Shown here piece by piece: positions 37,301 through 57,833 of a stretch of 59,688 nucleotides of DNA; within the stretch, counting starts at the first letter, position 1; every line of letters begins with the position of its first letter. The stretch covers positions 1 through 59,688 of the IMG/VR virus record IMGVR_UViG_3300022748_000181. One strand, 5' to 3'. The notes beneath the pieces were generated by a model. That model was not told where the DNA came from. It made no database searches and saw only the letters and a program-made list of their open reading frames with translations. This stretch comes from a virus (lineage: Duplodnaviria > Caudoviricetes). A program made the translations under genes and the position numbers.

Positions 37301-39697
37301 AACTTGAACAAACGCTTTTTCAACGCCGTTGTCGGTGATGACATAACCATCAAAGAATTTTGTAAACACTTGATATTGTTTAGTTTCACCACTGATAGCT
37401 GTCCAGTTGTTATATTTGTCAATGACCGCTAGACCGTCGTTTTCCAAAATATAACCGGAGTTTGCATTAACTGTATAAGTTGTTTGATCTAGTGTATATG
37501 TAAATGTGTCCGAATCATAATAGTTAGTAAAACTAATGTCACCTACGTTGTTAAAAGTCTGATACTTTAACGGGAAGCCCAGTACCGGATCATTTGATCC
37601 TGTGCCAACTGTGTATCCAAAGAACTTTGTGCCGGCAAATGTGCTGCCAGGGTAAACGGTTGTATCGCTAAAGCTGTAGTCATTACTGTCAATTAAGTCA
37701 TACAGAGGAGCTTGGTTTACACCAGTCTTGGCTTGGCACTCGATCCATTCAGATCCAGTGAATCTAAACGTCTTGGCCTTGTTGACATCTCCGCCACATA
37801 CTAGAACCTGTTGTCCAGCAAATATAGGGTCGTCACTTGTTTCAACAAGAGTAACATAATTATTGCTATTGATATTTTCAATAACAACTTCATATACTTT
37901 GTTCAACGTGTTGGTGTCGTAATCTTTTGCAAATACTACACGGTCACCTGTTTTTAATACTGCACCATCTACTGTTGCAGATACCTGCCCTTCAACTTCA
38001 TTGAACGCATCAGTTGCATCAAATGTAATGTAGTCAATATTTTTCTTGGCTTGCTTACCTGTGTTAAACAACTGAAGATCTCGATCAAATTCAATGATAG
38101 GTCTACGAGCAGGAAGGTTGGGGCCATAGTTTGCTGCGGTATTGTTATAGGTCGCAGTAGCATCAATAACATCAACATGGAACCATCTGTTGTATCTGCT
38201 CCAAGGGTTTCTATCTTCACTGGCACGATTGATAGTGATATAGTCTGGAGTTGTAGTGATGTATGCTCCAAAGTCTTCAACAACTTCTAGTTCGCTAACA
38301 GGCACTAAACGAATAGCTACACCAACGCCTTCAACGTAGAATTCAGTGTTTGCGTAGGCAGCAGGAACCACAGATGAGTCAAATTTGATCTTAAGACCAT
38401 TTGTAAACTTAACGCCATTAGGGCTGGTGTAACCTACTGAACCTGTAATATCTTTATCAACGTCAATGGTAGAACCAGCAGTATCGACAATTTTAATTTG
38501 CCCAGTAAATGCTGGATTTGTTCCATCTTGGTAAAATAAGTAGTCAGAGTTTGCAGTGATTATAGGAACAAGTGTGTAATTGTAATTGTTATCTAACCAG
38601 AACTGATTACTTGCATAGGTTTTACCTGATCCGATAAAAACCTTTTCACGTGGTAATACTGCAACTTCCTTGATTAGGTTGATTCTACAAGCAGGATCGT
38701 TTTCGTTAAGGGTACTCAATTGAATACGCCATACTGAACGACGGTCTTCAACAGGTACTGTAACGTTGTCCACTGTCCAGAATGCTGGATCAACATCGCT
38801 TGTAACAAAGACAAAAGTCTTGTTGTTAAACTGTGTGTCTAATCCATCTAGCCCATCTGGATGTGCTGCTAAGAAATCACTTAACAACTGACCCTGGATA
38901 TCAGTATAATGGAATGATACTGCTGCCGCAGGGCTTGCCTTGATAGGCATTTGAATATAAAAGTCCTGTGCGTTTGCACTAGGTACATGGAAAATAACTT
39001 CACCAACATCATCGCCGTTGTTAGACACACCAAATATCTGTCTAGTAGAAACAGTAGACACATTTGAATCTGTGCCCGACACGCCGGACTGAGTTTGAAT
39101 CCAGAACTTTGAACCAGGTTGGTCAACTACAAATTTATATGTACCGCCACGAGCCAGAGTTAATTGCAAGTTAGGATGTGTGCCAACTCCGCTGAATACA
39201 TATCCACCGATGTCAGTATTCTTTGTTACAGTAAATGTATTTTGCAATGGCACCGATCCAGCAAATACATTAACTGCATCCGGACCAGACGGTAACCAAT
39301 AATAATCGTAGTATCTAACAAACTTATCAAAATCAAAGTGTCCGTTAAATGAATATGCCTCGGCAGAGAACAATCGTTGATGGTTATTTGTTATGCCATT
39401 ACTGTTGGCAATGCTTTTCAACAAATCAAGATAACCAGACGAAAACGTTACATTATTGTTATCATCTTTAATGGTAATAGATGGCTCAAGTTGATAGTGC
39501 TTTCTAGCAGTATCTAACTCCGGAACATAATTGTCCTGTAACTTATACGTAGGTGCAAAAGTACGACCAATATAACCATTGATAGGCACGTTAACTGCTT
39601 GAGTATAAAGCTGATCTAACGTTGCGCCTAAGAATCGTTGGTTAGTTGATGTTCTAAATGCACCTGGCAAAAAGTTAATTGTGTTGTTTAACGCCAT
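28313..39697 (-). CDS. Giant virion structural protein (3794 aa; baseplate wedge/fibre-like)
   Basis: Start overlaps stop of gp6-like gene (TAATG); FG-GAP-like repeats (FGTSV, FGSVV, FGYSL, FGVSV, FGSSV); W...GDLVTYN-type modules; NPGSGYTS repeats; YINEVKPY. Confidence 0.75.
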   Translation of the reverse strand: MALNNTINFLPGAFRTSTNQRFLGATLDQLYTQAVNVPINGYIGRTFAPTYKLQDNYVPELDTARKHYQLEPSITIKDDNNNVTFSSGYLDLLKSIANSNGITNNHQRLFSAEAYSFNGHFDFDKFVRYYDYYWLPSGPDAVNVFAGSVPLQNTFTVTKNTDIGGYVFSGVGTHPNLQLTLARGGTYKFVVDQPGSKFWIQTQSGVSGTDSNVSTVSTRQIFGVSNNGDDVGEVIFHVPSANAQDFYIQMPIKASPAAAVSFHYTDIQGQLLSDFLAAHPDGLDGLDTQFNNKTFVFVTSDVDPAFWTVDNVTVPVEDRRSVWRIQLSTLNENDPACRINLIKEVAVLPREKVFIGSGKTYASNQFWLDNNYNYTLVPIITANSDYLFYQDGTNPAFTGQIKIVDTAGSTIDVDKDITGSVGYTSPNGVKFTNGLKIKFDSSVVPAAYANTEFYVEGVGVAIRLVPVSELEVVEDFGAYITTTPDYITINRASEDRNPWSRYNRWFHVDVIDATATYNNTAANYGPNLPARRPIIEFDRDLQLFNTGKQAKKNIDYITFDATDAFNEVEGQVSATVDGAVLKTGDRVVFAKDYDTNTLNKVYEVVIENINSNNYVTLVETSDDPIFAGQQVLVCGGDVNKAKTFRFTGSEWIECQAKTGVNQAPLYDLIDSNDYSFSDTTVYPGSTFAGTKFFGYTVGTGSNDPVLGFPLKYQTFNNVGDISFTNYYDSDTFTYTLDQTTYTVNANSGYILENDGLAVIDKYNNWTAISGETKQYQVFTKFFDGYVITDNGVEKAFVQVDILPAAQTTVPHTKVYLNNALLTPKTDYNFIKVGIYDVIVLETLPAVGDKIDVLIFSDQASAESFYEIPRNLEYNPLNGNFSSVTLGQIRSHYDKLLENTSVVSSGTIPVQDLYVRDHTGTLMQHSSPLIYAVGFMNNPDINFINGLSLAKKEYTKFKNKFLGLCSSLTNLNYKDPVSGVDTILQTINAVKNSSFPWYYSDMVPQGGNFTSVTYDVLNVRQTTYEISSIFNNHELSNRSILIYLNGVQLIEGTDYVFSTISPSVTFNVTFNFGDVIYIRDYFNTDGNYVPETPTKLGLYPKFKPEIFVDNTYQTPISVIRGHDGSITPAFGDFRDQYILELEKRIYNNIKVDYANNFIDLYDVIPGRFRKTDYSDLEFETILSQSFSEWTGQNNLDYTSNTVYDPNNSWTWNYAKFTDVVDGSYLQGSWRAIYEYWYDTDTPNITPWAMLGISSKPSWWDGRYGAGPYTSGNAVLWEDLESGYIWNDGAPYYDTRFARPGLTSFIPVDNAGNLISPTDVSLVKSANPQQAGKPWSPGEHGPVEIAWRRSGDYPYAIQLAIALSKPAKYFGTQLDIHKFFKNPQTGHFSTIDNKKLSPDTIVVNGDSSSVPGTVLRSSGYINWIVDSLTNQGVAAVDKVNTFLKNMSVQLTCKVGGFTDKNLITVYAEQTTPGSTNASVVVPDANYTLYLDSSVPVNTVTYSAVIVEKTLSGYSVTGYDTSKPFFTIYPSVIDANFQTATINSASAKIYSSASADPVLIPYGTEFTSIQQVADFLISYERFLTKQGFVFTQFDTDLQTERNWTLSVNELLYWSQQGWSANSIIVLNPISSKLNLSTQGSIVGEISNLTNGSKILDQNFLPIKTSNFNIIRTDEPVVGNNFYISTLDGTGICFARFDLIQFEHVLVFDNISEFGDIFYIPTLGTRQNRLKLNGVKTGIWTGALSAPGYMYNDPNIPEWTQGKDYKIGDLVTYNSYYYTATKDMPALLKFDPTLWTKINKSDIKTGLLPSLGHNAQKFENIYDIDKPPVDETLQNFSAGLIGFRPRPYLTDLGISIPTQTKLYQGYIKEKGSLNSITALTKANFNNVTGNINIHEEWAFRVGLYGGVNSNTFTEFVLDQSTFNSNPVAFTFTDNEYSTGNIIVNLSTASNVYNASNVSNVSTNIYGNRANHAYMTDLPSVGYMNAEDVDYSVFDINKFTDPLTKLGSGDKVWVAKDGTGQWDILRVNETDINAVAVTYTLDTFAQLQFNDHHPFVENDALVLKYFDPDFDGVYKVLSVPNLLTVTIEIKNEVALKRLLRGLSLSGNGIVYSLVSAKINSITDLAVNTIPKHGWIENDRVWVDSATTDGWGVYTYTTPWPETGLTHLTANVAQGNDKFGTSVKISSNNNYVYVGNPGNKSVQVFANVAGTLHANVTVSNAIANFGSVVESQGNLLIVGSTTDANVHVYRHWANATVTKLQTIKSANVTAINSISLSSDLKHLYIGDATNNIVEAYYTQTADTFGWVSKHTGPVASKFGSVVKVNSNGTKVFVSAPEATNVFAKAGNVYVYNGNTFATAQATISSQSKNDSALFGYSLDIDATGTNLLIGIPGSSESGQANGALERYALNGSTYNYTQLLTQPTMDIGRFGVSVSVSSDAAVLAVGSQGSSTDEHTYFDEFATIIDSDTTKFVDEIYDSGVTYVFENQIDQSQVGNAGQYVFAHELEAQLSAGDLFGSSVDVSRTLIVAGAPGSNATAGSAYTYNNLLGKLGWTLTRQQQAKVDIDTISRTFIYNKTDNNILAALDFIDPAKGKLLSTIDKDIDFKVIADPAMYNAGTGVVSPDLHWGANQVGKIWWNLDSIRYIDYEQDALIYRLTRWGQTFPGSSVDVYEWVESTTVPSQYTGSGTPLHADDSAYCTSGYVDQGGNIKLKYYFWVSNRDIINTRAGKSNSVVAIANAIESPAEQGIPYATVLRNDSIAMYNVNQLLTGQNSILHLGTQIGEQKLIHSEYALVQEGNTTNPIPAQLINKLNDSLSGIDANGNPVPDPSLPVSQRYGIGNRPVQTMIMRKDDALYNVIYLINNFLAEYPTVIRKPLTLMNSSEPVPAADSGEYDLSVDTFIELSYINPNKLSVGTKVIVLDDVNYSTKWAIYTWNGTAFNSEPRVQSFKTSLYWYYTDWFDSSYDPTSTPDLTVANNLEFGKLTLQPNTYIKVLDDGHGKFLVYHIDSSLKLNLVGIESGTIQVLSNVMPPAKETRQMLLAMKQEIFTDDIASEYNKIFFTIIKYILTEQRNVDWLFKTSFINAIQHIRKLEQFPAYISDNQNFYVDYINEVKPYRTIIREFVVDYERQDQFDGDITDFDLPPYWDSNVNVYRSPSGELSSDAAKLQTGVYSQWANNYAYKVVDTIIERPGTGYLLPPQISFVGGNGKGAEGYAEVNAYGQLSGIVITNPGSGYTSIPTIVINGTGTGAVARAVLRNIFDGNNTGHNVVRSVKTKIKFDRTSYTTSNVFQPWDEVVAGQVIAANTIIRLDEILYKLDQNDYTIDANVEFPIANVTQIGAGDFTSANDRITAFNGNVDLSLYVDGISYPGVIVDGNTAELWTANLVVFPDKLITYGGNLYLTTGNVFDAGGSFANISANVEQVYADSMTKVGINTDSIIQSRFTDALGVDPSDILIDGGAYVDTYESHAPEELVPGQMFDSVNISVFSNVSPTVNDYAFRLFDDLNQGRHFYRIAAANTTTLSQTLHLTDTVVHLTDASVLPQANPDMAIPGVLFVNGEKITYYRNYSHDTVTPWTANLTVTTGSLISYSGNTYVTTGNVYGATFNVVATNAEIIDVNSVTQIRRGVDGTPTLVQAQGSIATDGSRQQVVPNSTVTKSNVGASPATYTVTGNVSYLLTATHAISANIGEFITQVGSSANVRLLETVHNANIVAVVGVGPTTTWNTGNLIVNGVTTIANKVSYNPIGMVNTAGQVTLAANTDIATGEIWYDVGVGTATTGNGLINSHTFASDFLLNSPGYMP

Positions 39698-47345: not shown

Positions 47346-47348
47346 GGA

Positions 47349-47648
47349 TTACAGCCCCAACGATTGCTTAATTGTAGTTATAGATGGTACGTAAATAATT
47401 ACGCCCGTTTTAAAACTCAATAGAGGATCTACTAATGTGTCGGGATTTCTGATAGCAAACACCCACCATAGTCCTGCGTCTTTATAAAGGTCATAGGCCA
47501 ATAAATCAGGTCTCAAATTATAAGGTGAGTCAATTTGATAGATTGCATCATCAATTGCCGAGTTAATTGTTTTAGTATTCCATACGTCCAAGAAAGGGCC
47601 CCATGTGCCTGTTCCATAGTATGGGCTTGTCTTTGAATAGGTAGCCAT
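47349..47648 (-). CDS. Baseplate wedge LysM-like protein (gp53-like)
   Basis: RPDLLAYDLY...LWWVFA..N...DP. Confidence 0.75.
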   Translation of the reverse strand: MATYSKTSPYYGTGTWGPFLDVWNTKTINSAIDDAIYQIDSPYNLRPDLLAYDLYKDAGLWWVFAIRNPDTLVDPLLSFKTGVIIYVPSITTIKQSLGL

Positions 47649-49730: not shown

Positions 49731-50747
49731 ATGAGTAACTTATTTAAAAAGGCCGCGGTCTTTACTGACATACACTTTGGCTTAAAATCAAACAGTACAT
49801 TGCATAACGACGATTGTTTAAACTTCGTCAAATGGGCCACAGTCAAGGCCAAGGAAGAGGGTTGCGAAACTGCGTTCTTCCTTGGTGACTGGCATAACAA
49901 TCGGGCTTCGATAAATATTGTTACACTAAATTACAGTTTACAAGCCCTTGAACATCTTAACGCCAATTTTGACAGAGTATACTTTATACCTGGTAATCAC
50001 GATTTGTATTATCGCGATAAGCGAGACATTCAGAGCGTTGAATGGGCGAAACATTTATCGAATGTTGTCATTTGCAATGATTGGTTTATTGACGGGGACG
50101 TGGTTATTGCACCATGGCTTGTTTCGGATGATCATAAACGCATTCCAAAACTAAACGCCAAGTATATGTTTGGGCACTTTGAGTTGCCCGGATACTTGAT
50201 GAATGCTATGGTTGCCATGCCGGAGCACGGTGAGCTACGTCGAGAACAGTTTAGTCATTTCGACCATGTGTTTAGTGGACACTTTCACAAACGTCAAACA
50301 CAAAAGAACATTACCTACGTAGGCAACTGTTTTCCGCACAACTATGCAGATGCAGGCGACGACGATCGAGGTCTGATGGTGTTAGACTGGGGAAAGGATC
50401 CAGTATTTCATGCATGGCCAGACCAACCCAAATACAGAGTCTATCAATTGAGCGATGTTCTTAGACACACAGAATCTATGTTGTTGCCGGGTATGCATGT
50501 ACGAGTTAATTTAGACATTGATATCAGCTACGAAGAGGCAACTTTTGTTAAAGAAACGTTCATTGACACGTATAAACTGCGTGAAATTACTCTAATTCCC
50601 AACAAGGTTACCAGCGTTGCAGATGTTGAAATACAAGGTAACATTGCATTTGAAAGTGTTGACCAAATTGTTGCTGGACAATTGACTAATATTGACAGCG
50701 ACAAGTTTAACAAAAATCTGTTGTTAGACATTTACCGAAACTTATGA
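49731..50747 (+). CDS. gp47: Recombination endonuclease subunit (gp47/Mre11/SbcD)
   Basis: DIHFG, LGDW, GNHD, GHFE, SGHFH metallophosphoesterase motifs. Confidence 0.92.
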   Translation: MSNLFKKAAVFTDIHFGLKSNSTLHNDDCLNFVKWATVKAKEEGCETAFFLGDWHNNRASINIVTLNYSLQALEHLNANFDRVYFIPGNHDLYYRDKRDIQSVEWAKHLSNVVICNDWFIDGDVVIAPWLVSDDHKRIPKLNAKYMFGHFELPGYLMNAMVAMPEHGELRREQFSHFDHVFSGHFHKRQTQKNITYVGNCFPHNYADAGDDDRGLMVLDWGKDPVFHAWPDQPKYRVYQLSDVLRHTESMLLPGMHVRVNLDIDISYEEATFVKETFIDTYKLREITLIPNKVTSVADVEIQGNIAFESVDQIVAGQLTNIDSDKFNKNLLLDIYRNL

Positions 50748-51595
50748 ATCTAAATACTAGATGGTTACAAGTCGAAGCTACAACTAAATGTAATGCTTGG
50801 TGCCCAGCATGCGGCAGGAACCAAGGTGGCTTTGGCTTGTCTCCGCATTTAGTAATCGAAGACTTAGATTTATCAATATATCATAATCATTTAGAATCAA
50901 TGCCTAACTTAGAGGTAATTGATTTTTGTGGCACCTACGGAGATGCTATTGCTGCACACAATATAGTCGAACTAACTAGATTATCAAAGCAATACGCTAA
51001 AAAAATTGTTGTTCGTACCAATGGTAGCCTAAGAAGCACTACTTGGTGGCAAGAATATGCAGCCCTGTTTAAAGATATAGATCACGAGATATGGTTTTGC
51101 ATTGACGGACTCAAAGATACACACAGCATATATAGGCAAGGCACAGACTTTGATACCATAATGGCTAATGCTGCTACTGTAATTGCACAAGGATGTTCTG
51201 CTGTTTGGCAGTTTATCCCATGGGAACATAACCAACATCAGATCAAAGACTGTATACGGTTAAGTCAACAACTTGGATTTGAGCGTTTTGAGTTTATAAA
51301 AAACGTAAGACGAGACTTTGTACCAAGACATTGGAAAACAGGAAAAGTGTTTGAAATTAAACCGTGGCAACACAACAGCGAATTCAATATGATCGAACGA
51401 CCAAGGACACAACTTGATGTCCAGGACTGTCGACATTTGACACAGCCTAGTCTATACTTAAATGCTAACGGAAAACTCAGCAACTGTTGTTTCTTTAATA
51501 CTGGCATATGTGCCACAACTGCTGACCAACTACCGAATATAGAGCAAGAATTGAATAACCCGCGGGATATTTGTTTACATTACTGCGGACACTAA
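50744..51595 (+). CDS. Radical SAM protein with C-terminal Twitch-like Cys cluster
   Basis: CNAWCPAC, GTYGD, RTNG, IDG; C-terminal C...NCC...C...C. Confidence 0.85.
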   Translation: MNLNTRWLQVEATTKCNAWCPACGRNQGGFGLSPHLVIEDLDLSIYHNHLESMPNLEVIDFCGTYGDAIAAHNIVELTRLSKQYAKKIVVRTNGSLRSTTWWQEYAALFKDIDHEIWFCIDGLKDTHSIYRQGTDFDTIMANAATVIAQGCSAVWQFIPWEHNQHQIKDCIRLSQQLGFERFEFIKNVRRDFVPRHWKTGKVFEIKPWQHNSEFNMIERPRTQLDVQDCRHLTQPSLYLNANGKLSNCCFFNTGICATTADQLPNIEQELNNPRDICLHYCGH

Positions 51596-51596
51596 T

Positions 51597-53366
51597 ATGT
51601 TTAAAATAAAAGATATAACTGTAAAGAACTTTATGAGCGTGGGCAATGCCACACAAGCTGTTAATTTTGATAGGCGAGACCTAACCCTAGTATTAGGTGA
51701 AAACCTAGACCTCGGCGGGGACGACAGCGGCGCACGTAACGGTACAGGTAAGACTACAATTATCAATGCACTGAGCTATGCCTTATACGGTAACGCCTTA
51801 ACCAATATTAAGAAGGATAATCTGATTAATAAGACCAATGGTAAAGGTATGTTGGTTACCATTGACTTTGAAAAAGACGGCATTGACTACAGAATTGAGC
51901 GAGGACGCAAGCCCGGTGTAATGAAATTCTTTGTATCGGGCAATGAAAAAGAAATTACCGACGATGCACAAGGTGACAGCAGAGAAACACAAGCCGACAT
52001 TGAACGAATGTTGGGCATGAGCCACGACATGTTCAAGCACGTAGTAGCATTAAACACCTACACTGAACCGTTCTTAGCCCTTAAATCAAACGATCAAAGA
52101 ACTATCATTGAGCAGTTGTTGGGCATTACCATGCTTAGTGAAAAAGCAGAAGCCCTTAAAGAGCTCGCTAAGAAAACCAAAGACGACATCACTAGAGAAG
52201 AGTTCCGTATTAAAGCAGTCGGCGATGCCAACAAGCGTATCAAAGATCAAATTGACGCATTGGTTCGCAGGGAAAACATGTGGATCAGTAAAAGAAGCGA
52301 AGATGTTGCAGCATTACAAGCAGCATATGATCAACTTGCACAGATTGATATCGAAGCCGAACTAGATGCACACCTAGCACTAAGCACATACAACGAAAAG
52401 TCTAAAAAGATTAGAGATCTAAACACTTGGATTAAACGTTGCGAGTTAGATGAAACGCGAGAAAACAAATTAATAGAACAACTCAAGACAGAAATACAAA
52501 GTCTCGAGAATCACACTTGCCACGCATGCGGTCAAGGGTTTCATGATGACAAACAAGAGCGTTTATTAGCCGATAAAAAGAAAGCATTGCAAGAAGCTGC
52601 ATTACAAGCATTGGCAACCAATACACAATGGTTAGAACACACAGATGCACTTGCTGCATTGGGAGAACTAGGACCACAGCCACAGGTTTTTTATGATCGT
52701 GAAAGCGATGCGTTTGAACATCGTAGCAGTATGGCAAGTGTGTTAGCTCAGTTAACTGCCAAAGAGCAGGAGGCCAATCCATATGCTGAACAAATTAAAG
52801 AAATGAATGAACATGCTGTTGAAGAAATTGACTACAGCATAATCAATGACTTGGCATATCTCAAAGAACATCAAGAGTTTTTGTTAAAGCTGCTTACAAA
52901 CAAAGACAGTTTTATTCGCAAACGCATTATTGATCAGAACTTGAGCTACTTGAATACACGATTAGGGCAATACTTAGATCGCATTGGCCTCCCGCATACT
53001 GTACAATTCAACAATGACTTAACAGTTAGTATTACTGAATTGGGACGGGATCTAGACTTTGACAACTTGTCACGTGGTGAACGTAACCGATTGATCCTGT
53101 CATTATCATGGGCATTCCGTGATGTGTGGGAAAGTTTGTATCAGCCCATTAATTTATTGTTTATCGACGAGCTTGTTGATAGCGGAATGGACAGTAGCGG
53201 GGTTGAAAATAGTCTAGCTATCCTTAAAAAGATGGCAAGAGACAGCAATAAGAGTATTTGGTTAGTTTCACACAAAGATGAACTAGCAGGCCGAGTTAAC
53301 AATACATTACACGTTGTTAAGGAAAACGGATTTACCACTTACAATACTGACGTAGAAATAACATAA
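51597..53366 (+). CDS. gp46: Recombination ATPase subunit (gp46/Rad50/SbcC)
   Basis: KNFMSVG, NGTGKTT, CHAC zinc hook, LSRGE signature, FIDE Walker B, VSH. Confidence 0.93.
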   Translation: MFKIKDITVKNFMSVGNATQAVNFDRRDLTLVLGENLDLGGDDSGARNGTGKTTIINALSYALYGNALTNIKKDNLINKTNGKGMLVTIDFEKDGIDYRIERGRKPGVMKFFVSGNEKEITDDAQGDSRETQADIERMLGMSHDMFKHVVALNTYTEPFLALKSNDQRTIIEQLLGITMLSEKAEALKELAKKTKDDITREEFRIKAVGDANKRIKDQIDALVRRENMWISKRSEDVAALQAAYDQLAQIDIEAELDAHLALSTYNEKSKKIRDLNTWIKRCELDETRENKLIEQLKTEIQSLENHTCHACGQGFHDDKQERLLADKKKALQEAALQALATNTQWLEHTDALAALGELGPQPQVFYDRESDAFEHRSSMASVLAQLTAKEQEANPYAEQIKEMNEHAVEEIDYSIINDLAYLKEHQEFLLKLLTNKDSFIRKRIIDQNLSYLNTRLGQYLDRIGLPHTVQFNNDLTVSITELGRDLDFDNLSRGERNRLILSLSWAFRDVWESLYQPINLLFIDELVDSGMDSSGVENSLAILKKMARDSNKSIWLVSHKDELAGRVNNTLHVVKENGFTTYNTDVEIT

Positions 53367-53403
53367 TTTTTATCATGGCTCGCTGTGTCATAACTAATGT
53401 ACA

Positions 53404-53838
53404 ATGACATGGCATTATCAAGGAACCGAAGTTGACTCTCTACCAGATGACTGCGTAGGTTTCGTTTATCTCATCACAAACTCTGTATCAGGGCGCAAAT
53501 ACATAGGCAAAAAGCTAGCAAAATTTTCTAAGACCACCTTAAAAACAGTAAAACTCAAAAACGGCACCAAAAAGAAGAAGAAAATACGTAGTAAGATCGA
53601 TTCTGATTGGCGCGAATATTATGGCTCAAGCGATGAATTAAACAAAGATATAGCAGCATTAGGTGCTGATAAGTTTACACGGGAAATCCTATACCTATGT
53701 AAAAGTAAAGCAGAATGTAGTTATATCGAAGCAAGAGAACAATTTACTCGTAAAGTCTTAGAATCTAAAGATTATTATAACGGACAAATCTCTGTCCGTG
53801 TCCATGGCTCCCACATTTTAAACAAATTATCAGTATAA
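53404..53838 (+). CDS. GIY-YIG endonuclease (Seg-like, single domain, basic insertion)
   Basis: GFVYLITN...RKYIGKK, YYGSS, FTREIL, E..EQ, YYN; Lys-rich insert. Confidence 0.85.
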   Translation: MTWHYQGTEVDSLPDDCVGFVYLITNSVSGRKYIGKKLAKFSKTTLKTVKLKNGTKKKKKIRSKIDSDWREYYGSSDELNKDIAALGADKFTREILYLCKSKAECSYIEAREQFTRKVLESKDYYNGQISVRVHGSHILNKLSV

Positions 53839-54352
53839 GGCTCGCACAGGCTAACAACGTGTGCCCAACATTAAGACAACTGGACCAACGGGTCGCAGGG
53901 ACGGAAGACGCTATGCTGACTAGCGCACTCAATCACTATCCTTAACAGGACGAAGATCGCAAATTGCCGCGGTTTGATTGTTTGAAAAGAATAAAAGCGA
54001 TTGTTTACCATGGGTGTAAACAATTTGTAAGGCTAAAAAGACGTAGCAGCGATGCTACAGGTTAGTGCAATATGTTAGCGTATATTGTATTAGCTGCCGT
54101 TGTGATAAAGACGCAACTCGAGGTACCGGACAACCGCCTCTGTAATGTTGTAACGCTATGTGGCTGTGCTACTCAGATGAAGCTCATTCATTTCTTTGCC
54201 CTGTGCGGGCAAAGTGTGACCGATTAATCTAGATGAAACTATTAATAGCTTCGCTCTTAGTTAAATGAATTCAGTTAATTAGTTTTATAGTTAATTGAAT
54301 TGATTTAAATTTGTTGTGAGCAAAGCGAAACAACAGATGTACGCAGTACATC
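53839..54352 (+). ncRNA. Candidate large structured non-coding RNA (no family recognised)
   Basis: ~510 nt with no long ORF in a gene-dense genome; more than 10 stems, G-U-rich helices, a GNRA loop and nested multibranch pairing. Confidence 0.6.
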
Positions 54353-54580
54353 TTAAATGAATGGCAATCCTGATTCCTTAGTAGTTTCTAAATTATCTTT
54401 AATCAGCTTATTGATCATCTCACGATCTTCATAGCTCAGGAATACAGCATCATCATAGGATATGCTACCACGCATATACCAGCATATTTTAAATAATTCC
54501 TGTTTTATGGCTTTTGACTCTCGATCGAAACTTTCAATGTATTCGACAATATCCTCATTGGACAGAGTCAAAAGCCTCAT
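54353..54580 (-). CDS. Tail/baseplate assembly chaperone C-terminal ORF (gp51-like)
   Basis: 75 aa; ATGA overlap with upstream gene; lies in the -1 frame after a TTTTTTC slippery site. Confidence 0.65.
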   Translation of the reverse strand: MRLLTLSNEDIVEYIESFDRESKAIKQELFKICWYMRGSISYDDAVFLSYEDREMINKLIKDNLETTKESGLPFI

Positions 54581-55422
54581 ACGAAAAAATTTGTCTGCTC
54601 AAATAGGAATGGAGTAACAAACTCTTTACCACACTCTTCATTTTGACATGTTAGAGTTACTTCGTTGTACTTGTTATCATTCTTGATGTTATCTAAATAA
54701 GCACGAATTGAATCCCATACTGCTTTATCACAGTTGTTTAAGAAATCCAGTATAAACGCTTTGTCTGTTACTGTTTCACCGTCGGGTGTAGTAATGTATT
54801 CGATGTTCTTGCTGACAGCATTAATGCCAGTTGTAATTAACTTCTGGAATACTTCGTCAAATTTACTTTGTTTTTCCGCTTCGTTTAAGTCTTCGCTTTG
54901 TACAATTTGAATAATACGTTGCTCGTCAAAGTTCAACATGTTATTTTGGTTGTATTCTTCGTAACTTAGTGGGCGTAGCTTGATAGACAACCCGGCGGCT
55001 TGTACAGGTCTACTCCAATCGCCTGGATTGATACGATCCATCATTACACTAACATCAATGTTTTGTTCATTTTTAGTAGTGCAGTGTGGGCATACAGCAG
55101 TAAATTCCAGTTCCTTGCCGTAGGTAGCAATACGAATAGCAAGCAACAGCGTATCTAAGTCCACTATAGGCATTTTCCAAGGATCTAAGATGCTAGGGCA
55201 GCAACTACGAATGACCTGTGCAGTGCTGGACCCGTTCATCAATGCATCCGGAGTCTTCATAGTTAGTTCATCTTTTGCAGTCATTGCAAAAATTGGAATT
55301 TCGCCGGTGGCAGGTAAGTCTATGGTATTAGGTGGATACCAACGTCCGTTACTGGGCAATTTGATGTATAGTGCAGGCTGTCTAAAATGCTTGGCCAGTG
55401 GATTGGGTGATAAACTACTCAT
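54577..55422 (-). CDS. Baseplate hub / tail assembly chaperone (gp26-like)
   Basis: KLPSNG, MTAKDE, DLDTLLLAIR..TYG, CPHC and CQNEEC; GGAG RBS 7 nt before ATG at 55422. Confidence 0.7.
   Translation of the reverse strand: MSSLSPNPLAKHFRQPALYIKLPSNGRWYPPNTIDLPATGEIPIFAMTAKDELTMKTPDALMNGSSTAQVIRSCCPSILDPWKMPIVDLDTLLLAIRIATYGKELEFTAVCPHCTTKNEQNIDVSVMMDRINPGDWSRPVQAAGLSIKLRPLSYEEYNQNNMLNFDEQRIIQIVQSEDLNEAEKQSKFDEVFQKLITTGINAVSKNIEYITTPDGETVTDKAFILDFLNNCDKAVWDSIRAYLDNIKNDNKYNEVTLTCQNEECGKEFVTPFLFEQTNFFV
54583..54589 (-). promoter_or_regulatory. Putative -1 programmed ribosomal frameshift heptamer T TTT TTC
   Basis: Minus strand ACA AAT TTT TTC GTA TGA; -1 frame continues CGT ATG AGG CTT into the 75-aa ORF. 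Confidence 0.6.
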
Positions 55423-55433
55423 ATAAGTACTCC

Positions 55434-55459
55434 ATAAATAATTGATATATGTACTTATC
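55434..55459. promoter_or_regulatory. Pair of late-promoter-like motifs between divergent genes
   Basis: ATAAATA (+, 55434-55440) toward the tape-measure-like gene; GATAAGTA (-, 55452-55459) toward the gp26-like gene; similar to T4 late TATAAATA. Confidence 0.5.
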
Positions 55460-55484
55460 ACATGTAATTAACTGGGTAGTTTAA

Positions 55485-57833
55485 ATGGCACTTGAAGATA
55501 GATTAGAACAGCTAGACCATATTTTGGGCACGGTTAACGCTGGCTACGAGAGCCATGCTAGAATGTTGGCCAAAGCAGAGATGCAAGAAACTCTGTTTAT
55601 TAAAAAGCTAGCAGAGCAGCTTAAAACCACAGAAGATCAAGTGCGTATGCAGCTTAGGTCTCTAGAAGCTGCAAAGAAACGTGAGAAATATGAAGAGCAA
55701 CGTGAAGTGGCCATGGCCAATGGCATTAAACAAGCTGTGCATGGCCTACAACAGTTCTTCTCAGGCTCGGTATCTAGTACACAGGCCCTGTACAATTCTG
55801 ACAACGCATTTACAGCGGTAATCCCAACGTTACAGTTGTTGGGCAATACTGTAAAGAGTATCACCGGTGCAATGAGCACCTTCTTCTCGGGCCTGCCATT
55901 TGTTGGCGGAGCATTTACAGCAGCGGATAAAATGGCCGGTGTTGTTGTTGACCTCGGGACACAACTATTACAGGCACAGTTAGAAAACGCTGCCAAATTG
56001 GTGGGCAGCTACAACGAAATTTCCAAAACCGGCATGACCTTTGGGGCGAACTTAGAAAAGTTGCAAAAAACGGCCCTAGACTCTGGTATGAGCATTGGTA
56101 CTTTTAGTAAATTTGTTACTAGTAACATTGATAACTTGGCTGCAATGGGCGGCGCCCTGGAATCTAATGCTGCTAAGATCGGTAACATGAGCTATCGTAT
56201 TGCACAGAACAACGGTGCATTGTTGACCATATATGGTAGTTACGAAGCACTAGCAGGAGCCACTGCTGACTACACTTCAATGTTGTCTGGCTACGGAATT
56301 GACGTTCTTAAGACAACTAGAAATCTTGAAGCTGGCGCAAAAGATTATTTGGTACAACAAAAAGAACTTACATCTTTAACTGGTAAAAACGCCGAAGCAT
56401 TAAAACGAGAAGAAGAAGAACGCAGAAAAAATGCTGCCTATCAAATGAGATTGGGCAGAATGAATGAAGATCAAGCTGCTAATGTTCGTAAAAACATCAC
56501 TATGTTTGGTACGGTCAGTAAAGAAGCAGGAGACTTTGCTACTGAAGTATTCAATACCCAAGGTAACGTAAGCAGCAAGCAGGCCTTGCTATTCCAACAG
56601 CAATTCCCGGAACTGGCAGAAACTATTCGTACAACTCAAGCTGACGCAGAGCGTATGAACATTGCAGAGTTCAATAAAAACCAAGCTGAATACATTCAAA
56701 GCAGAGCACCGTTGATTAAAATGGAAGCAGAACGCCTTGAAGATCTCTTTAAACTAGCAGCAGGTGGCGTTAAGAATGAATACATTGATCAAGCCAACAG
56801 AACTGCGTCGGGTATACTTGCTGCAACTACTAAACTAGGAAACATTGTTACATTTAATCTGGAACTAGAAGCCCGTAGGAAAGAACTTGAAGCACAAGCT
56901 GGTAAGGGAATCGAAAAAGGTTCATTGGCATCAGTTATTGATGGGTTAGAGAAGTTTAAGCGCGGCATGGACGCAATTACAACCACAACATTTCCTGCTA
57001 TTGCTAGTATTACTGACAACTTGATTGCAATCAATGCCAAGTTGGCAAAAGAACTAACAGGTCCTGCTAGTAAGTTTGTAGTTGAAAAATTCTCGGCTTT
57101 GTTGGATAAATTACTTTCCGAAGCCGGTGTTGAGAAAAAAGTAACTCCTATTCCAATTCCGCAAGATATTCATGCCCTTTCTGCTGCACGTATTGATGCT
57201 GAAAATCAAACAGCAGCAGCTAAGGAGCGTTTAGCGGCGGTAGAAAAAGAGCACGGACAACGTAGTCAAGAAGCACGTGAAGCTAGATTGGCAACTAGAC
57301 TAGCCGAAGCCAAGGAACGCAAAGCACGTGAAGCTGAAAAGGCTGTAGTAAAACCCGAAGACATAAAATCCGCAGCACAGCCTGTACCACCTGGTGCAAT
57401 ACCATGGAAGAGTCCAGAATCTCATGCCGGCGGCAAAACTGATCCTAGACTTGAAGCTGTGTTAGCTGATGTTTATGCAAAATTTGGCGAAGGTAGCTTT
57501 GTGGTTACAGGAGCAGATGACAAGTATCATAGAGAACACAAACCTGGTAGCAAGCATACACAAGGTTTGGCTGCTGACATCAAGCCTAAATCTGCGTCAA
57601 TGACAGAAATTGTTGAAGCATTGCATCAACGTATGCGCGAAAAAGGCATACAAGGAACTGTAGAAGCACATCCAGATGCAGACGGCACAGGACAACACCT
57701 ACACATGCAAATTACCAAGCCCGAAGAAAAACGTGCCGAAGTAATTCCGGACAACGAAACCAACTTAGCCATGGTAGACAAGCTAGACCAAGCAGTTGAT
57801 TTGCTAAAAAGAATTAGCATGAATACCGCCTAA
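55485..57833 (+). CDS. Tape-measure-like protein with C-terminal M15-like Zn peptidase motif
   Basis: Ala/Leu/Glu-rich helical 782 aa; SKHTQGLAADI...HLHMQ; adjacent to chaperone pair. Confidence 0.6.
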   Translation: MALEDRLEQLDHILGTVNAGYESHARMLAKAEMQETLFIKKLAEQLKTTEDQVRMQLRSLEAAKKREKYEEQREVAMANGIKQAVHGLQQFFSGSVSSTQALYNSDNAFTAVIPTLQLLGNTVKSITGAMSTFFSGLPFVGGAFTAADKMAGVVVDLGTQLLQAQLENAAKLVGSYNEISKTGMTFGANLEKLQKTALDSGMSIGTFSKFVTSNIDNLAAMGGALESNAAKIGNMSYRIAQNNGALLTIYGSYEALAGATADYTSMLSGYGIDVLKTTRNLEAGAKDYLVQQKELTSLTGKNAEALKREEEERRKNAAYQMRLGRMNEDQAANVRKNITMFGTVSKEAGDFATEVFNTQGNVSSKQALLFQQQFPELAETIRTTQADAERMNIAEFNKNQAEYIQSRAPLIKMEAERLEDLFKLAAGGVKNEYIDQANRTASGILAATTKLGNIVTFNLELEARRKELEAQAGKGIEKGSLASVIDGLEKFKRGMDAITTTTFPAIASITDNLIAINAKLAKELTGPASKFVVEKFSALLDKLLSEAGVEKKVTPIPIPQDIHALSAARIDAENQTAAAKERLAAVEKEHGQRSQEAREARLATRLAEAKERKAREAEKAVVKPEDIKSAAQPVPPGAIPWKSPESHAGGKTDPRLEAVLADVYAKFGEGSFVVTGADDKYHREHKPGSKHTQGLAADIKPKSASMTEIVEALHQRMREKGIQGTVEAHPDADGTGQHLHMQITKPEEKRAEVIPDNETNLAMVDKLDQAVDLLKRISMNTA

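What the first reader, a model, noticed from the sequence alone, without database searches (positions are those of the whole stretch)
53839..54352. ~510-nt highly structured non-coding element starting at the stop codon of a compact GIY-YIG nuclease: candidate new large RNA or nuclease-RNA system
Seen: this is the only long ORF-free stretch in the window, and much of it is base-paired. Stems read by eye: GCACA/TGTGC (53844-53864); GACC-AACG-GGTC (53883-53894); CGCTA/TAGCG (53909-53925); CAATCA/TGATTG (53930-53980) enclosing TCCT-TAAC-AGGA and GATCGC/GCGGTT; ATTGTTTAC/GTAAACAAT (54000-54024); GTAGCA-GCGA-TGCTAC (GNRA loop, 54043-54058); a 15-bp stem GGTTAGTGCAATATG/TATATTGTATTAGCT (54060-54095) with five G-U pairs; nested GCAAC/GTTGT, GAGG/CCTC and CGG-ACAA-CCG (54113-54151); CTTTGCCC/GGGCAAAG (54194-54214) flanked by two AGATGAA copies. 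The G-U pairs and GNRA loop work only on the + strand, the strand of the nuclease. Known: large structured RNAs beside small nucleases occur in HEARO/omega-RNA-IscB systems and group I introns. I do not see group I, RNase P or tmRNA hallmarks. Inference: an undescribed phage ncRNA, possibly bound by the 144-aa GIY-YIG protein, which has no separate C-terminal DNA-binding domain but carries a Lys-rich insert.
Basis: partly seen in the sequence, partly recalled or inferred. Interest (0 to 1): 0.85.

Follow-up and report, generated by a model that had tools for sequence, protein, structure and literature searches.

The report
Large structured phage RNA beside nuclease
The stretch is a real, roughly 500-base folded RNA gene of uncultured freshwater T4-like phages; its first third is a known RNA motif of unknown function, the rest is not in the RNA family library I searched, and the nuclease link looks like neighbourhood rather than partnership.

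Summary
Observation confirmed. Window 53839-54352 is ORF-free and folds far better than shuffles on the + strand (z -4.3).

It is not wholly new. Positions 53839-53983 are a full-length match to Rfam RF01718, the Polynucleobacter-1 RNA (98.3 bits, cut-off 37). This is an orphan motif from 2010.

The RNA is much longer than that model. In 117 related viral contigs the conserved unit runs on through:
- a central domain with two covarying pseudoknots;
- a hairpin flanked by two identical 7-mers (R1, R2);
- two 3' hairpins.

Covariation is strong. On 53 sequences 90% of cells pair against 76% in shuffles, and 58 of 81 pairs show compensatory change.

R1 and R2 change together (same 7-mer in 52 of 53). 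Both can pair with one invariant strand, S.

A GIY-YIG gene lies upstream in 110 of 117 loci. Against a partnership:
- the protein family occurs in 518 phage records;
- none of 7 cultured carriers has the RNA;
- 12 loci have other genes in between;
- 2 loci have a PD-(D/E)XK nuclease instead.

Best reading: an autonomous large phage non-coding RNA, possibly a strand-exchange device. Its function is unknown.

The parts
53404..53838 (+). Neighbouring gene: 144-aa SegE-type GIY-YIG nuclease (context only, not shown to be a partner)
   Evidence: Pfam PF19835, E 5.1e-35, residues 3-129 on model positions 1-123. PHROG 447. A homologue (56-83% identity) lies upstream on the same strand in 110 of 117 related loci.
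53839..53983 (+). 5' domain = Polynucleobacter-1 RNA (Rfam RF01718). Helices: H1 53844-48/53860-64, H2 53880-86/53891-98, H3 53909-13/53921-25, H4 53930-34/53976-80, H5 53939-42/53947-50, H6 53955-60/53969-74
   Evidence: cmscan 98.3 bits (gathering score 37), E 5.2e-20, model positions 1-141 of 141. H1, H2, H3 and H6 have pairs with change on both sides.
53978..53985 (+). Strand S (UUGUUUGA): nearly invariant and complementary, with G-U pairs, to both R1 and R2
   Evidence: S with R1: 92.9% of cells paired, slid controls at most 50.2%. S with R2 (1-nt bulge): 96.2%, slid controls at most 55.2%, with one compensatory pair UA:44 / CG:5. The pairing itself is inferred.
53990..54025 (+). Lineage-specific expansion hairpin (stem 54000-54008/54016-54024)
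   Evidence: These columns are gaps in 51 of 53 aligned representatives. The conservation profile shows 94-98% gaps here.
54027..54166 (+). Central double-pseudoknot domain. H7 54043-48/54053-58 (GNRA loop), H8 54060-73/54082-95, PK1 54076-81/54153-58, PK2 54099-103/54130-34, H10 54113-17/54147-51, H11 54120-24/54136-40
   Evidence: On A3 (36 sequences) 93.9% of cells pair against 76.1% in shuffles (0 of 500 as high). 32 of 40 pairs change on both sides. Covariation 0.487 against 0.176; slid controls at most 0.130. All 6 PK1 pairs covary. Covariance model R1 matches 83 of 100 sources, one hit each. No Rfam family matches.
54173..54181 (+). R1: first copy of the co-varying 7-mer (54175-54181 AGATGAA) with its UC lead
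   Evidence: Same 7-mer as R2 in 52 of 53 representatives, with at least 9 variants. Mutual information 0.96-1.14 bits with the matching R2 columns, and no third partner.
54194..54214 (+). H12 hairpin CTTTGCCC/GGGCAAAG between R1 and R2
   Evidence: 8 pairs, 89.2% of cells paired, 4 pairs with change on both sides.
54228..54237 (+). R2: second copy of the 7-mer (54231-54237 AGATGAA), preceded by UGUGAC-N7 just as R1 is preceded by UGUGGC-N8
54259..54312 (+). A+T-rich linker, variable in length and sequence
   Evidence: 70-97% gaps in relatives. Sequences are listed.
54313..54334 (+). 3' hairpin A: stem 54313-17/54330-34 closing the conserved loop GA-GC-NNN(N)-GC-GAA. The loop holds a 2-bp mini-stem, often with a GNRA loop
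   Evidence: Found by pattern in 66 of 103 loci that have enough downstream sequence. The closing pair and both mini-stem pairs covary. The pattern search itself selected for this motif.
54335..54353 (+). 3' hairpin B (8 bp, 3-nt loop). Probably the 3' end of the RNA. It also reads as a terminator for the convergent - strand genes
   Evidence: 7 of 8 pairs change on both sides. It is kept whether the next gene is on the + or the - strand. The scan calls it terminator-like on the - strand only.

Best explanation
53839-54352 encodes one multi-domain RNA of about 0.5 kb on the + strand. It belongs to a clade of uncultured freshwater T4-like myoviruses.

**Layout, 5' to 3':**
- The Rfam orphan motif Polynucleobacter-1.
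- A U/G-rich strand, S.
- A central domain locked by two pseudoknots.
- Two identical 7-nt elements (R1, R2) around a hairpin.
- A variable A+T-rich linker.
- Two 3' hairpins.

**Shown.** The RNA-level structure, its strand, its extent, its restriction to this phage clade, and the joint change of R1 and R2.

**Inferred.**
- It is made as the 3' continuation of the gp47-gp46-nuclease transcript and ends at hairpin B.
- It works as a folded RNA in its own right, not as a guide or cofactor of the GIY-YIG protein.
- The single strand S pairs either with R1, closing the central domain, or with R2. This gives a strand-exchange switch, within one molecule or between molecules.
- Keeping the two competing strands equally strong would explain why they stay identical.
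- The small nuclease gene sits there because free-standing nuclease genes settle beside conserved RNA genes.

What the RNA acts on is unknown.
For: **Family and extent**
- RF01718 full-length hit.
- The sequence downstream of the Rfam model is 68-88% identical in most loci, although the flanking gp26 proteins are only 26-61% identical.

**Covariation**
- Whole RNA: 90.0% of cells paired against 76.1% in shuffles; 58 of 81 pairs compensatory; 0 of 500 shuffles as high.
- Central domain: 93.9% against 76.1%.
- 3' hairpins: 94.3% against 77.7%.

**Strand**
- GNRA loops and many G-U pairs on the + strand.
- z -4.3 on + against -2.3 on -.

**One unit**
- The central-domain model hits 83 of 100 sources, always next to the 5' motif.

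**R1, R2 and S**
- R1 = R2 in 52 of 53.
- Both are complementary to S.

**Independence from the nuclease**
-.

**Phage rather than bacterial**
- 1 GTDB contig of 1320 bases.
- 1 of 151 genomes of that order.

**Transcription**
- Metatranscriptome contigs bridge the ORF and the RNA: X2 covers 53412-54060, X3 covers 53416-54240.
Against: - No transcript ends are mapped. The RNA-library data are contigs, and DNA carry-over is not excluded. Their depth over the RNA is similar to that of the flanking genes, which does not suggest an abundant stable RNA, though contig depth is a poor measure.
- The S-R pairing rests on complementarity. S hardly varies, so there is only one compensatory pair and none for R1.
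- RNAduplex gives S-R1 about -5.3 and S-R2 about -3.0 kcal/mol on average. The two are therefore not equal in strength as computed, and the best S partner overlaps R1 or R2 in only 19 of 53 sequences.
- The N7 position of R1/R2 lies outside the proposed helix yet co-varies most strongly.
- Joint changes of R1 and R2 fall on well-supported tree branches only 1-2 times, so the formal test has no power.
- In 84 of 110 loci the nuclease ORF ends within 50 nt of the RNA, and two different nuclease folds occupy that slot. A functional tie therefore cannot be excluded.
Confidence: 0.55

Rival explanations
1. Cis-acting regulatory or insulating 3' element. This would be a very large riboswitch-like or attenuator structure at the end of the early/middle operon. 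It would decide whether transcription runs on, either into the convergent late baseplate genes as antisense RNA or into a + strand gene where one follows. S/R1/R2 would be the expression platform and hairpin B the terminator.
For: - Weinberg 2010 scored the motif as likely cis-regulatory, with 'switch' marked '?' (table row only).
- In about 25 of 117 loci a + strand ORF starts about 80 nt after the RNA.
- The unit ends in a conserved strong hairpin.
- The alternative pairings S-R1 and S-R2 look like a switch.
- The element sits between convergent transcription units.
Against: - In the window and in most loci no + strand gene follows.
- About 400 nt of conserved, pseudoknotted structure far exceeds what a terminator or insulator needs.
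- Hairpin B has no U-tract on the + strand, and the scan calls it a terminator only on the - strand.
- No ligand class is suggested by neighbouring genes, which vary.
Confidence: 0.2
2. Nuclease-RNA system. The RNA binds the adjacent small nuclease and directs or regulates it, with R1/R2 as guide-like specificity elements.
For: - Tight adjacency: the ORF ends within 50 nt of the RNA in 84 of 110 loci, on the same strand in 110 of 110.
- Where the GIY-YIG gene is missing from a complete context (2 loci), another nuclease (PD-(D/E)XK, PF24608, 1.9e-25) holds the same slot.
- R1 and R2 vary quickly and jointly with no partner in cis, as guide segments would.
- The nuclease has no separate DNA-binding domain.
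Against: - The protein family is in 518 phage records.
- 0 of 7 cultured carriers have RF01718. 0 of the 5 of these that I searched have the central domain. None shows a long gap after the gene.
- 12 loci have 0.8-1.8 kb of unrelated genes in between.
- No protein column tracks R1/R2: the best mutual information is 0.39-0.77 bits, against 0.96-1.14 bits between R1 and R2.
- A 7-nt element is short for a guide.
- The complement of R is not enriched in the window: 12 matches against 7.4 expected, and 2 of the 12 are R1 and R2 themselves.
- I know of no RNA-guided GIY-YIG enzyme (recalled; a search for such papers, listed none by title or abstract).
Confidence: 0.08
3. A ribozyme, for example one that cuts itself free of the upstream mRNA at the ORF/RNA junction or performs another RNA reaction.
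For: - Dozens of invariant nucleotides lie in formally unpaired segments around two pseudoknots, as in catalytic cores.
- The conserved unit starts at the stop codon.
- One metatranscriptome contig (run X4) ends exactly at 53839.
Against: - No known ribozyme family matches, even at E up to 10.
- The hammerhead-like look of hairpin A (GA-GC..GC-GAA) fails because its flanks pair with each other and the CUGA segment is absent.
- A single contig end is not evidence of cleavage.
Confidence: 0.07
4. A DNA-level element. Either the conserved sequence is chiefly the cleavage or homing target of the neighbouring nuclease, or R1/R2 are iterons of a replication origin next to an A+T-rich unwinding region.
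For: - Direct repeats that change together are typical of protein-binding iterons.
- An A+T-rich stretch follows (54259-54312).
- Two nuclease families occupy the adjacent slot, as expected for homing-type genes beside a conserved target.
Against: - 58 of 81 pairs show compensatory base-pair changes, with strand-specific G-U pairs and GNRA loops. These features act on RNA, not DNA.
- The A+T-rich linker is not conserved in length or sequence.
Confidence: 0.05

Closest known systems
Polynucleobacter-1 RNA motif (Rfam RF01718; Weinberg et al. 2010, PMC2864571)
   Same: Positions 53839-53983 match the whole model at 98.3 bits, with the same helices. Both come from freshwater habitats. The function is unknown in both.
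   Different: - The Rfam model covers 141 positions. Here it is the 5' third of a conserved unit of about 440-515 nt.
- The added parts are a double-pseudoknot domain, the R1-H12-R2 module and two 3' hairpins.
- The paper's table lists it under Burkholderiales and freshwater/estuary. Here it is a T4-like phage RNA and nearly absent from bacterial genomes.
- I could not see the paper's supplement, which may describe gene context.
Large ornate phage-associated RNAs of unknown function (GOLLD, ROOL)
   Same: Size class of several hundred nt, many pseudoknots and conserved unpaired nucleotides, phage association, no known function. These RNAs form homo-oligomers according to Kretsch et al. 2025 (PMC12286853; I saw the search listing and the start of the abstract only). 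That makes an intermolecular S-R2 swap thinkable.
   Different: No Rfam match to either family. No tRNA genes nearby (0 in the window). Oligomerisation was not tested here.
HEARO / omega-RNA with IscB, and TnpB guide RNAs
   Same: A large structured RNA next to a compact nuclease gene, with a short variable segment.
   Different: In those systems the RNA carries a long guide and the protein is a RuvC(/HNH) nuclease that is always coupled to it (recalled). Here the nuclease is GIY-YIG or PD-(D/E)XK, the coupling is clade-specific and breakable, and there is no HEARO match.
Group I intron carrying a GIY-YIG homing endonuclease (T4 td / I-TevI type)
   Same: A GIY-YIG gene next to a pseudoknotted RNA with a GNRA loop in a T4-like phage.
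   Different: No group I match, even at E up to 10. No interrupted host gene: gp46 is complete at 589 aa, and a convergent gene follows. The ORF lies 5' of the whole structure, not in a loop.
Free-standing Seg nucleases beside structured RNA genes (T4 segB in the tRNA cluster; recalled, not checked here)
   Same: A SegE-type GIY-YIG gene directly beside a conserved RNA gene in a T4-like genome. Replacement by another nuclease family at the same slot fits turnover of homing-type genes.
   Different: This GIY-YIG protein is unusually conserved (56-83% identity) and near-universal in the clade, unlike sporadic homing genes. The cleavage site is unknown.

Membership tests
Rfam RF01718 Polynucleobacter-1 RNA | Covariance-model score at or above the curated gathering score (37 bits) | tested here: met
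   98.3 bits, E 5.2e-20. Same hit at 1.2e-23 in the record search.
Rfam RF01718 Polynucleobacter-1 RNA | Full-length match with all consensus helices | tested here: met
   Model positions 1-141 of 141, not truncated. The helices hold in 53 relatives with compensatory changes.
Group I intron | Match to the Rfam group I model / conserved catalytic core | tested here: not met
   No such match among the 14 hits at E up to 10 on 53300-54700.
Group I intron | Interrupts a host gene, with exons on both sides | tested here: not met
   Upstream gp46 is complete. Downstream lies a convergent 75-aa ORF and gp26. No tRNA is present.
HEARO / omega-RNA-IscB | Rfam HEARO match and an adjacent IscB-type (RuvC/HNH) ORF | tested here: not met
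   No HEARO hit. The neighbour is PF19835 GIY-YIG.
GOLLD / ROOL large RNAs | Match to the Rfam models | tested here: not met
   No hit at gathering score in the whole window, nor at E up to 10 locally.
Known self-cleaving ribozymes (hammerhead and others in Rfam) | Model match / complete catalytic core | tested here: not met
   No hit. Hairpin A has GA..GAA around a 2-bp stem, but it has no CUGA segment and its flanks pair with each other.
GIY-YIG nuclease, SegE type (Pfam PF19835), for the neighbouring protein | Score above the curated cut-off over the whole domain | tested here: met
   120.8 bits (cut-off 25), residues 3-129 on model positions 1-123. No solved structure is detectable by sequence. 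Catalytic activity was not tested.
Obligate nuclease-RNA system (any kind) | Protein and RNA co-occur wherever either is found | tested here: not met
   The protein occurs without the RNA in 7 of 7 cultured phage genomes checked. The RNA occurs without the GIY-YIG gene in 2 loci with complete context.
Intrinsic terminator (for hairpin B) | G+C-rich hairpin followed by a U-tract on the transcribed strand | tested here: inconclusive
   The scan reports it on the - strand (54353-54335), not on the + strand. The hairpin is kept where the next gene is on the + strand.

The most novel reading that the evidence does not exclude
The RNA is a programmable device. Its twin 7-nt elements R1 and R2 change together and have no partner in cis. 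They would be specificity determinants that base-pair with an outside nucleic acid. The small nuclease encoded directly upstream (GIY-YIG, or PD-(D/E)XK in two loci) would then be recruited by the RNA. That would make an RNA-directed exclusion or homing system built on nuclease folds not known to be RNA-guided.
Probability: 0.06. Interest if true: 0.9.

Novelty: new variant of a known kind. Interest (0 to 1): 0.6.

Why it matters
Polynucleobacter-1 has stood in Rfam since 2010 as a short orphan motif filed under bacteria. Three points here would change how it is studied.

**It is a domain of a larger phage RNA.** It forms the 5' part of a roughly 0.5-kb, doubly pseudoknotted RNA carried by abundant uncultured freshwater T4-like phages. 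That places it with the few large ornate RNAs (GOLLD, ROOL, OLE, HEARO) whose size and conservation imply sophisticated functions. It also tells experimenters which construct to fold, probe or image.

**R1 and R2 co-vary by identity.** The two elements stay identical while changing, and both are complementary to a single invariant strand. This pattern is unusual and gives a concrete hypothesis to test: strand exchange, or swapping between molecules.

**The nuclease-RNA idea is unlikely here.**

Tried and rejected
**Known RNA classes**
- tRNA or tmRNA: ARAGORN found 0 genes in the window.
- Other Rfam families for 53984-54352: only sub-threshold chance hits.
- Hammerhead reading of hairpin A: rejected.

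**Searches for relatives**
- blastn of 53300-54700 against 50,697 phage records: no match.
- Model R1 on 5 cultured phage genomes: no match. The tool notes that an empty answer alone shows nothing, but the same model hit 83 of 100 related sources. I did not run R1 on phiN3 or P-SSM2.

**A partner for R1/R2**
- Exact 8-mer complement within +/-6 kb of each locus: no recurrent position.
- Mutual-information scans of the RNA and of -520..+640: no third partner.
- Complement in the window: 12 matches against 7.4 expected.
- GIY-YIG residues: no column tracks R1/R2.
- R1 and R2 pairing with each other, local hairpins, small ORFs across R1/R2, CsrA-type GGA sites, promoter -10 elements, CRISPR-like repeats and target-site duplications: each considered by eye, and dropped because some variants break the pattern.

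**Other ideas dropped**
- S pairing with ACAAC (54130-34) instead of PK2: rejected, because S stays unchanged where ACAAC changes and GTTGT compensates.
- A direct repeat of the RNA's 5' end upstream of the ORF (GGCTCGC at 53381 and at 53839): window-specific. Relatives show a different conserved upstream motif.
- The Melnitz phage 148-nt gap after its GIY-YIG gene: no motif.
- Genes inserted on either side of the RNA: no informative Pfam or PHROG family, except one B12/radical-SAM protein and DUF6614.

**Tests without power**
- Metatranscriptome runs: only assembled contigs were available, so no starts, ends, strand or level could be read. Uncovered parts are not evidence.
- Tree test of joint R1/R2 change: too few well-supported branches for significance.

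**Literature**
- 'Polynucleobacter-1' gave one paper.
- GIY-YIG + cyanophage + NAD synthetase, large phage RNAs and GIY-YIG + RNA-guided: by title and abstract, none describes this RNA.
The supplement of Weinberg 2010 may hold the motif's drawing and gene context.
Full report
**What is there**

The window is a fragment of an uncultured virus record, estimated 17% complete. Its genes are T4-like:
- gp47/SbcD-like, 49731-50747
- a radical-SAM protein, 50744-51595
- gp46/SbcC-like, 51597-53366
- a 144-aa SegE-type GIY-YIG protein, 53404-53838
- on the - strand, a 75-aa ORF (54353-54580) and the baseplate hub protein gp26 (54577-55461)

Between the convergent GIY-YIG gene and the 75-aa ORF lie 514 ORF-free bases. 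This is the longest such gap in the window. As RNA the + strand folds to -156.1 kcal/mol, with z -4.30 against 100 dinucleotide shuffles. The - strand reaches only z -2.33.

**The known part**

cmscan against Rfam 15 gives one hit above threshold in the whole window. Positions 53839-53983 (+) match RF01718, the Polynucleobacter-1 RNA, at 98.3 bits (gathering score 37). The match covers all 141 model positions and starts at the base after the stop codon.

Nothing in Rfam explains 53984-54352, even at E up to 10. There are no tRNA or tmRNA genes.

The only paper in the library that names the motif is Weinberg et al. 2010. Its table lists it as a probable RNA, probably cis-regulatory, 'switch ?', from Burkholderiales and freshwater/estuary samples (I saw that row only).

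**The family and its setting**

Synteny is conserved: gp47, often a radical-SAM gene, gp46, GIY-YIG, the RNA, then the 75-aa gene and gp26 on the opposite strand.

A GIY-YIG homologue (56-83% identical) lies upstream on the same strand in 110 of 117 loci. Its end is within 50 nt of the motif in 84, within 51-250 nt in 14, and 775-1823 nt away in 12.

Of the 7 loci without it:
- 4 are cut by the contig end within 210 nt;
- 1 (L050) has 522 nt upstream, which hold another ORF;
- 2 (L073, L099) carry a 171-aa PD-(D/E)XK nuclease (PF24608, 1.9e-25) ending 3-5 nt before the RNA.

**Extent**

The sequence after the Rfam model is itself conserved. Window 54028-54258 is 68-88% identical in most loci, while the neighbouring gp26 proteins are 26-61% identical.

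A position-by-position profile over 88 distinct sequences (of 103 with enough flank) shows three things:
- conservation from 53839 to about 54255;
- two window-specific inserts (53990-54025 and about 54259-54300);
- a further conserved block at 54305-54352.

**Structure**

I aligned 53 representatives that are less than 93% identical to one another, picked from the 88 (A1). RNAalifold and my own scan recovered local stems and two long-range pairings. The structure I then wrote down has 81 pairs in 15 helices. Measured on A1:

| measure | observed | 500 shuffles |
|---|---|---|
| cells paired | 90.0% | 76.1% |
| pairs with change on both sides | 58 | 45.2 |
| covariation score | 0.397 | 0.167 |

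No shuffle reached any observed value. Controls with the partner slid by 1-3 columns gave a covariation score of at most 0.103.

The part not in Rfam was realigned on its own (A3, 36 sequences of at most 150 nt). It gives 93.9% paired against 76.1%, 32 of 40 pairs compensatory, and 0.487 against 0.176.

Key features:
- a GNRA-capped hairpin (54043-54058);
- a 14-bp G-U-rich hairpin whose loop 54076-54081 pairs with 54153-54158 (PK1; all 6 pairs covary);
- GTTGT 54099-54103 pairing with ACAAC 54130-54134 inside the loop of the GAGG/CCTC stem (PK2; UA to CG in 10 sequences, GC to AU in 10).

A covariance model of this domain (R1) hits 83 of 100 sources searched (the window plus 99 loci). There is one hit per source. 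In the window and the loci whose coordinates I compared, the hit lies just 3' of the Rfam motif. The misses are loci cut short or the most divergent subgroup.

**The 3' end**

Every locus with enough sequence shows two further hairpins.
- Hairpin A is a variable stem that closes a conserved loop, GA-GC-N3-5-GC-GAA.
- Hairpin B follows immediately: 8 bp with a 3-nt loop.

My pattern found hairpin A in 66 of 103 loci. On the 50 distinct sequences, 94.3% of cells pair against 77.7% in shuffles, and 10 of 11 counted pairs are compensatory. The pattern selected for hairpin A but not for hairpin B.

Both hairpins persist whether the next gene is convergent or co-directional, so they belong to the RNA unit. 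The scan reads hairpin B as a terminator only for the - strand. It may serve both strands.

**R1, R2 and S**

Each 7-mer (54175-54181 and 54231-54237) is preceded by UGUGRC and a short spacer. They are the same 7-mer in 52 of 53 representatives, although at least 9 different 7-mers occur. In the raw alignment 47 are identical, and 5 of the 6 differences are a one-column shift.

Mutual information between matching positions is 0.96-1.14 bits, close to the entropy of the columns. No other column comes near, either in the RNA or from -520 to +640.

All four combinations of the first and fifth positions exist, so the two copies must have changed together more than once. On a tree built without these columns the counts are 11, 5 and 9-10 changes. 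Only 1-2 fall on well-supported branches, so the formal test is powerless.

Both copies are complementary, with G-U pairs, to one nearly invariant strand, S (53978-53985):
- S with R1: 92.9% of cells paired, slid controls at most 50.2%.
- S with R2: 96.2% of cells paired, slid controls at most 55.2%, with one compensatory pair (UA 44, CG 5).

I read this as one strand with two interchangeable partners. It is an inference. Computed duplex energies favour R1, and the seventh position, outside the helix, remains unexplained.

**Is it a nuclease-RNA system?**

The evidence is mostly against.
- tblastn finds the protein family in 518 phage records, all under 60% identical. Most are cyanophages, and the gene is often annotated 'NAD synthetase'.
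- I inspected seven cultured carriers: Melnitz, ACP17, S-SRM01, C48C1, BUCT-ZZ01, phiN3 and P-SSM2. In all seven the gene sits in other contexts, with at most 148 nt before the next annotated gene.
- None of the seven has RF01718 anywhere in its genome.
- None of the five searched with model R1 has the central domain.
- No GIY-YIG alignment column tracks R1/R2.
- Genes intervene in 12 loci.

In favour: the adjacency is tight, and a second nuclease fold occupies the same slot in two loci. Both facts also fit the habit (recalled) of free-standing homing-type nucleases to settle beside conserved RNA genes.

**Phage or bacterium?**

The pattern occurs once in 32 million GTDB contigs, on a 1320-base contig of a MAG. 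RF01718 is found in 1 of 151 genomes sampled from that MAG's order, namely that MAG itself. The RNA belongs to phages.

**Expression**

Four freshwater metatranscriptome runs hold the stretch. Laid on 51000-57000, contigs bridge the ORF and the RNA (X2: 53412-54060; X3: 53416-54240), and one ends at 53839 (X4). These are assembled contigs from RNA libraries. They show neither strand, nor ends, nor level, and DNA carry-over is not excluded.

**Verdict**

A real and elaborate phage RNA. Its 5' domain is already catalogued and of unknown function. Its full extent, pseudoknots, phage origin and the R1/R2/S arrangement do not appear in Rfam 15 or in the papers I could search. The mechanism remains inferred.

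My probabilities:
- about 0.55 for an autonomous folded RNA with a strand-exchange feature;
- 0.2 for a cis-acting regulator or insulator;
- under 0.1 each for a nuclease partner, a ribozyme, or a DNA-level element.

**Limits**

- MAFFT alignments misplace some variable stems.
- The loci come from one strict pattern, so divergent relatives are under-sampled.
- Paper supplements were not available.

Noticed in passing
L073:1124-1639 (-) and L099:5439-5954 (-): In two related loci the gene directly 5' of the RNA is a 171-aa PD-(D/E)XK nuclease (PF24608, E 1.9e-25) instead of the GIY-YIG gene. It ends 3-5 nt before the RNA.
   Followed up: partly
Related loci, e.g. L007:2948-3964 (+), L009:3112-4098 (+), L048:1044-2189 (-): In about 25 of 117 loci a + strand ORF follows the RNA by about 80 nt. 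These ORFs are 170-660 aa and share an N-terminus of the form MK(I/V)xE(L/I)I. They have no Pfam or PHROG family.
   Followed up: partly
Related loci, e.g. L004:10375-11148, L032:201-1175, L041:5112-6488: Twelve loci carry 0.8-1.8 kb of extra genes between the GIY-YIG gene and the RNA. One is a B12-binding radical-SAM protein and the rest have no family. Both flanks of the RNA are insertion hot spots.
   Followed up: partly
A1 columns 347-396 (L003, L021, L028, L086); L076 after R2; window 54000-54024: Expansion segments lie inside the RNA: TATAG-rich short repeats in the H10 loop of some relatives, four tandem ATCAAATGTG units after R2 in L076, and a hairpin shared only by the window and L109.
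   Followed up: no
window 53370-53403 and the matching place in relatives: A conserved motif (ATCATGGCAC ... CATAA[C/T]TA) lies 10-35 nt before the GIY-YIG start codon in many loci. It may be a promoter for the nuclease-RNA transcript.
   Followed up: no
window 28313-39697 (-): A single ORF of 3794 aa sits among the structural genes.
   Followed up: no
window 47346-47647: The second longest stretch without an ORF of 100 aa or more (about 300 nt). It has no Rfam hit at gathering score.
   Followed up: no
window 50744-51595 (+): A radical-SAM gene is wedged between gp47 and gp46. It is present in many relatives but not all.
   Followed up: no
window 53839: A metatranscriptome contig of run X4 covers 53387-53839 and ends exactly at the first base of the RNA. 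This is a contig end only, not evidence of processing.
   Followed up: no
L119 / L123 (G001 contig C209, 1320 bases): The only GTDB genome contig with the motif is a 1.3-kb contig of a MAG. It is probably phage DNA binned with a bacterial genome.
   Followed up: partly
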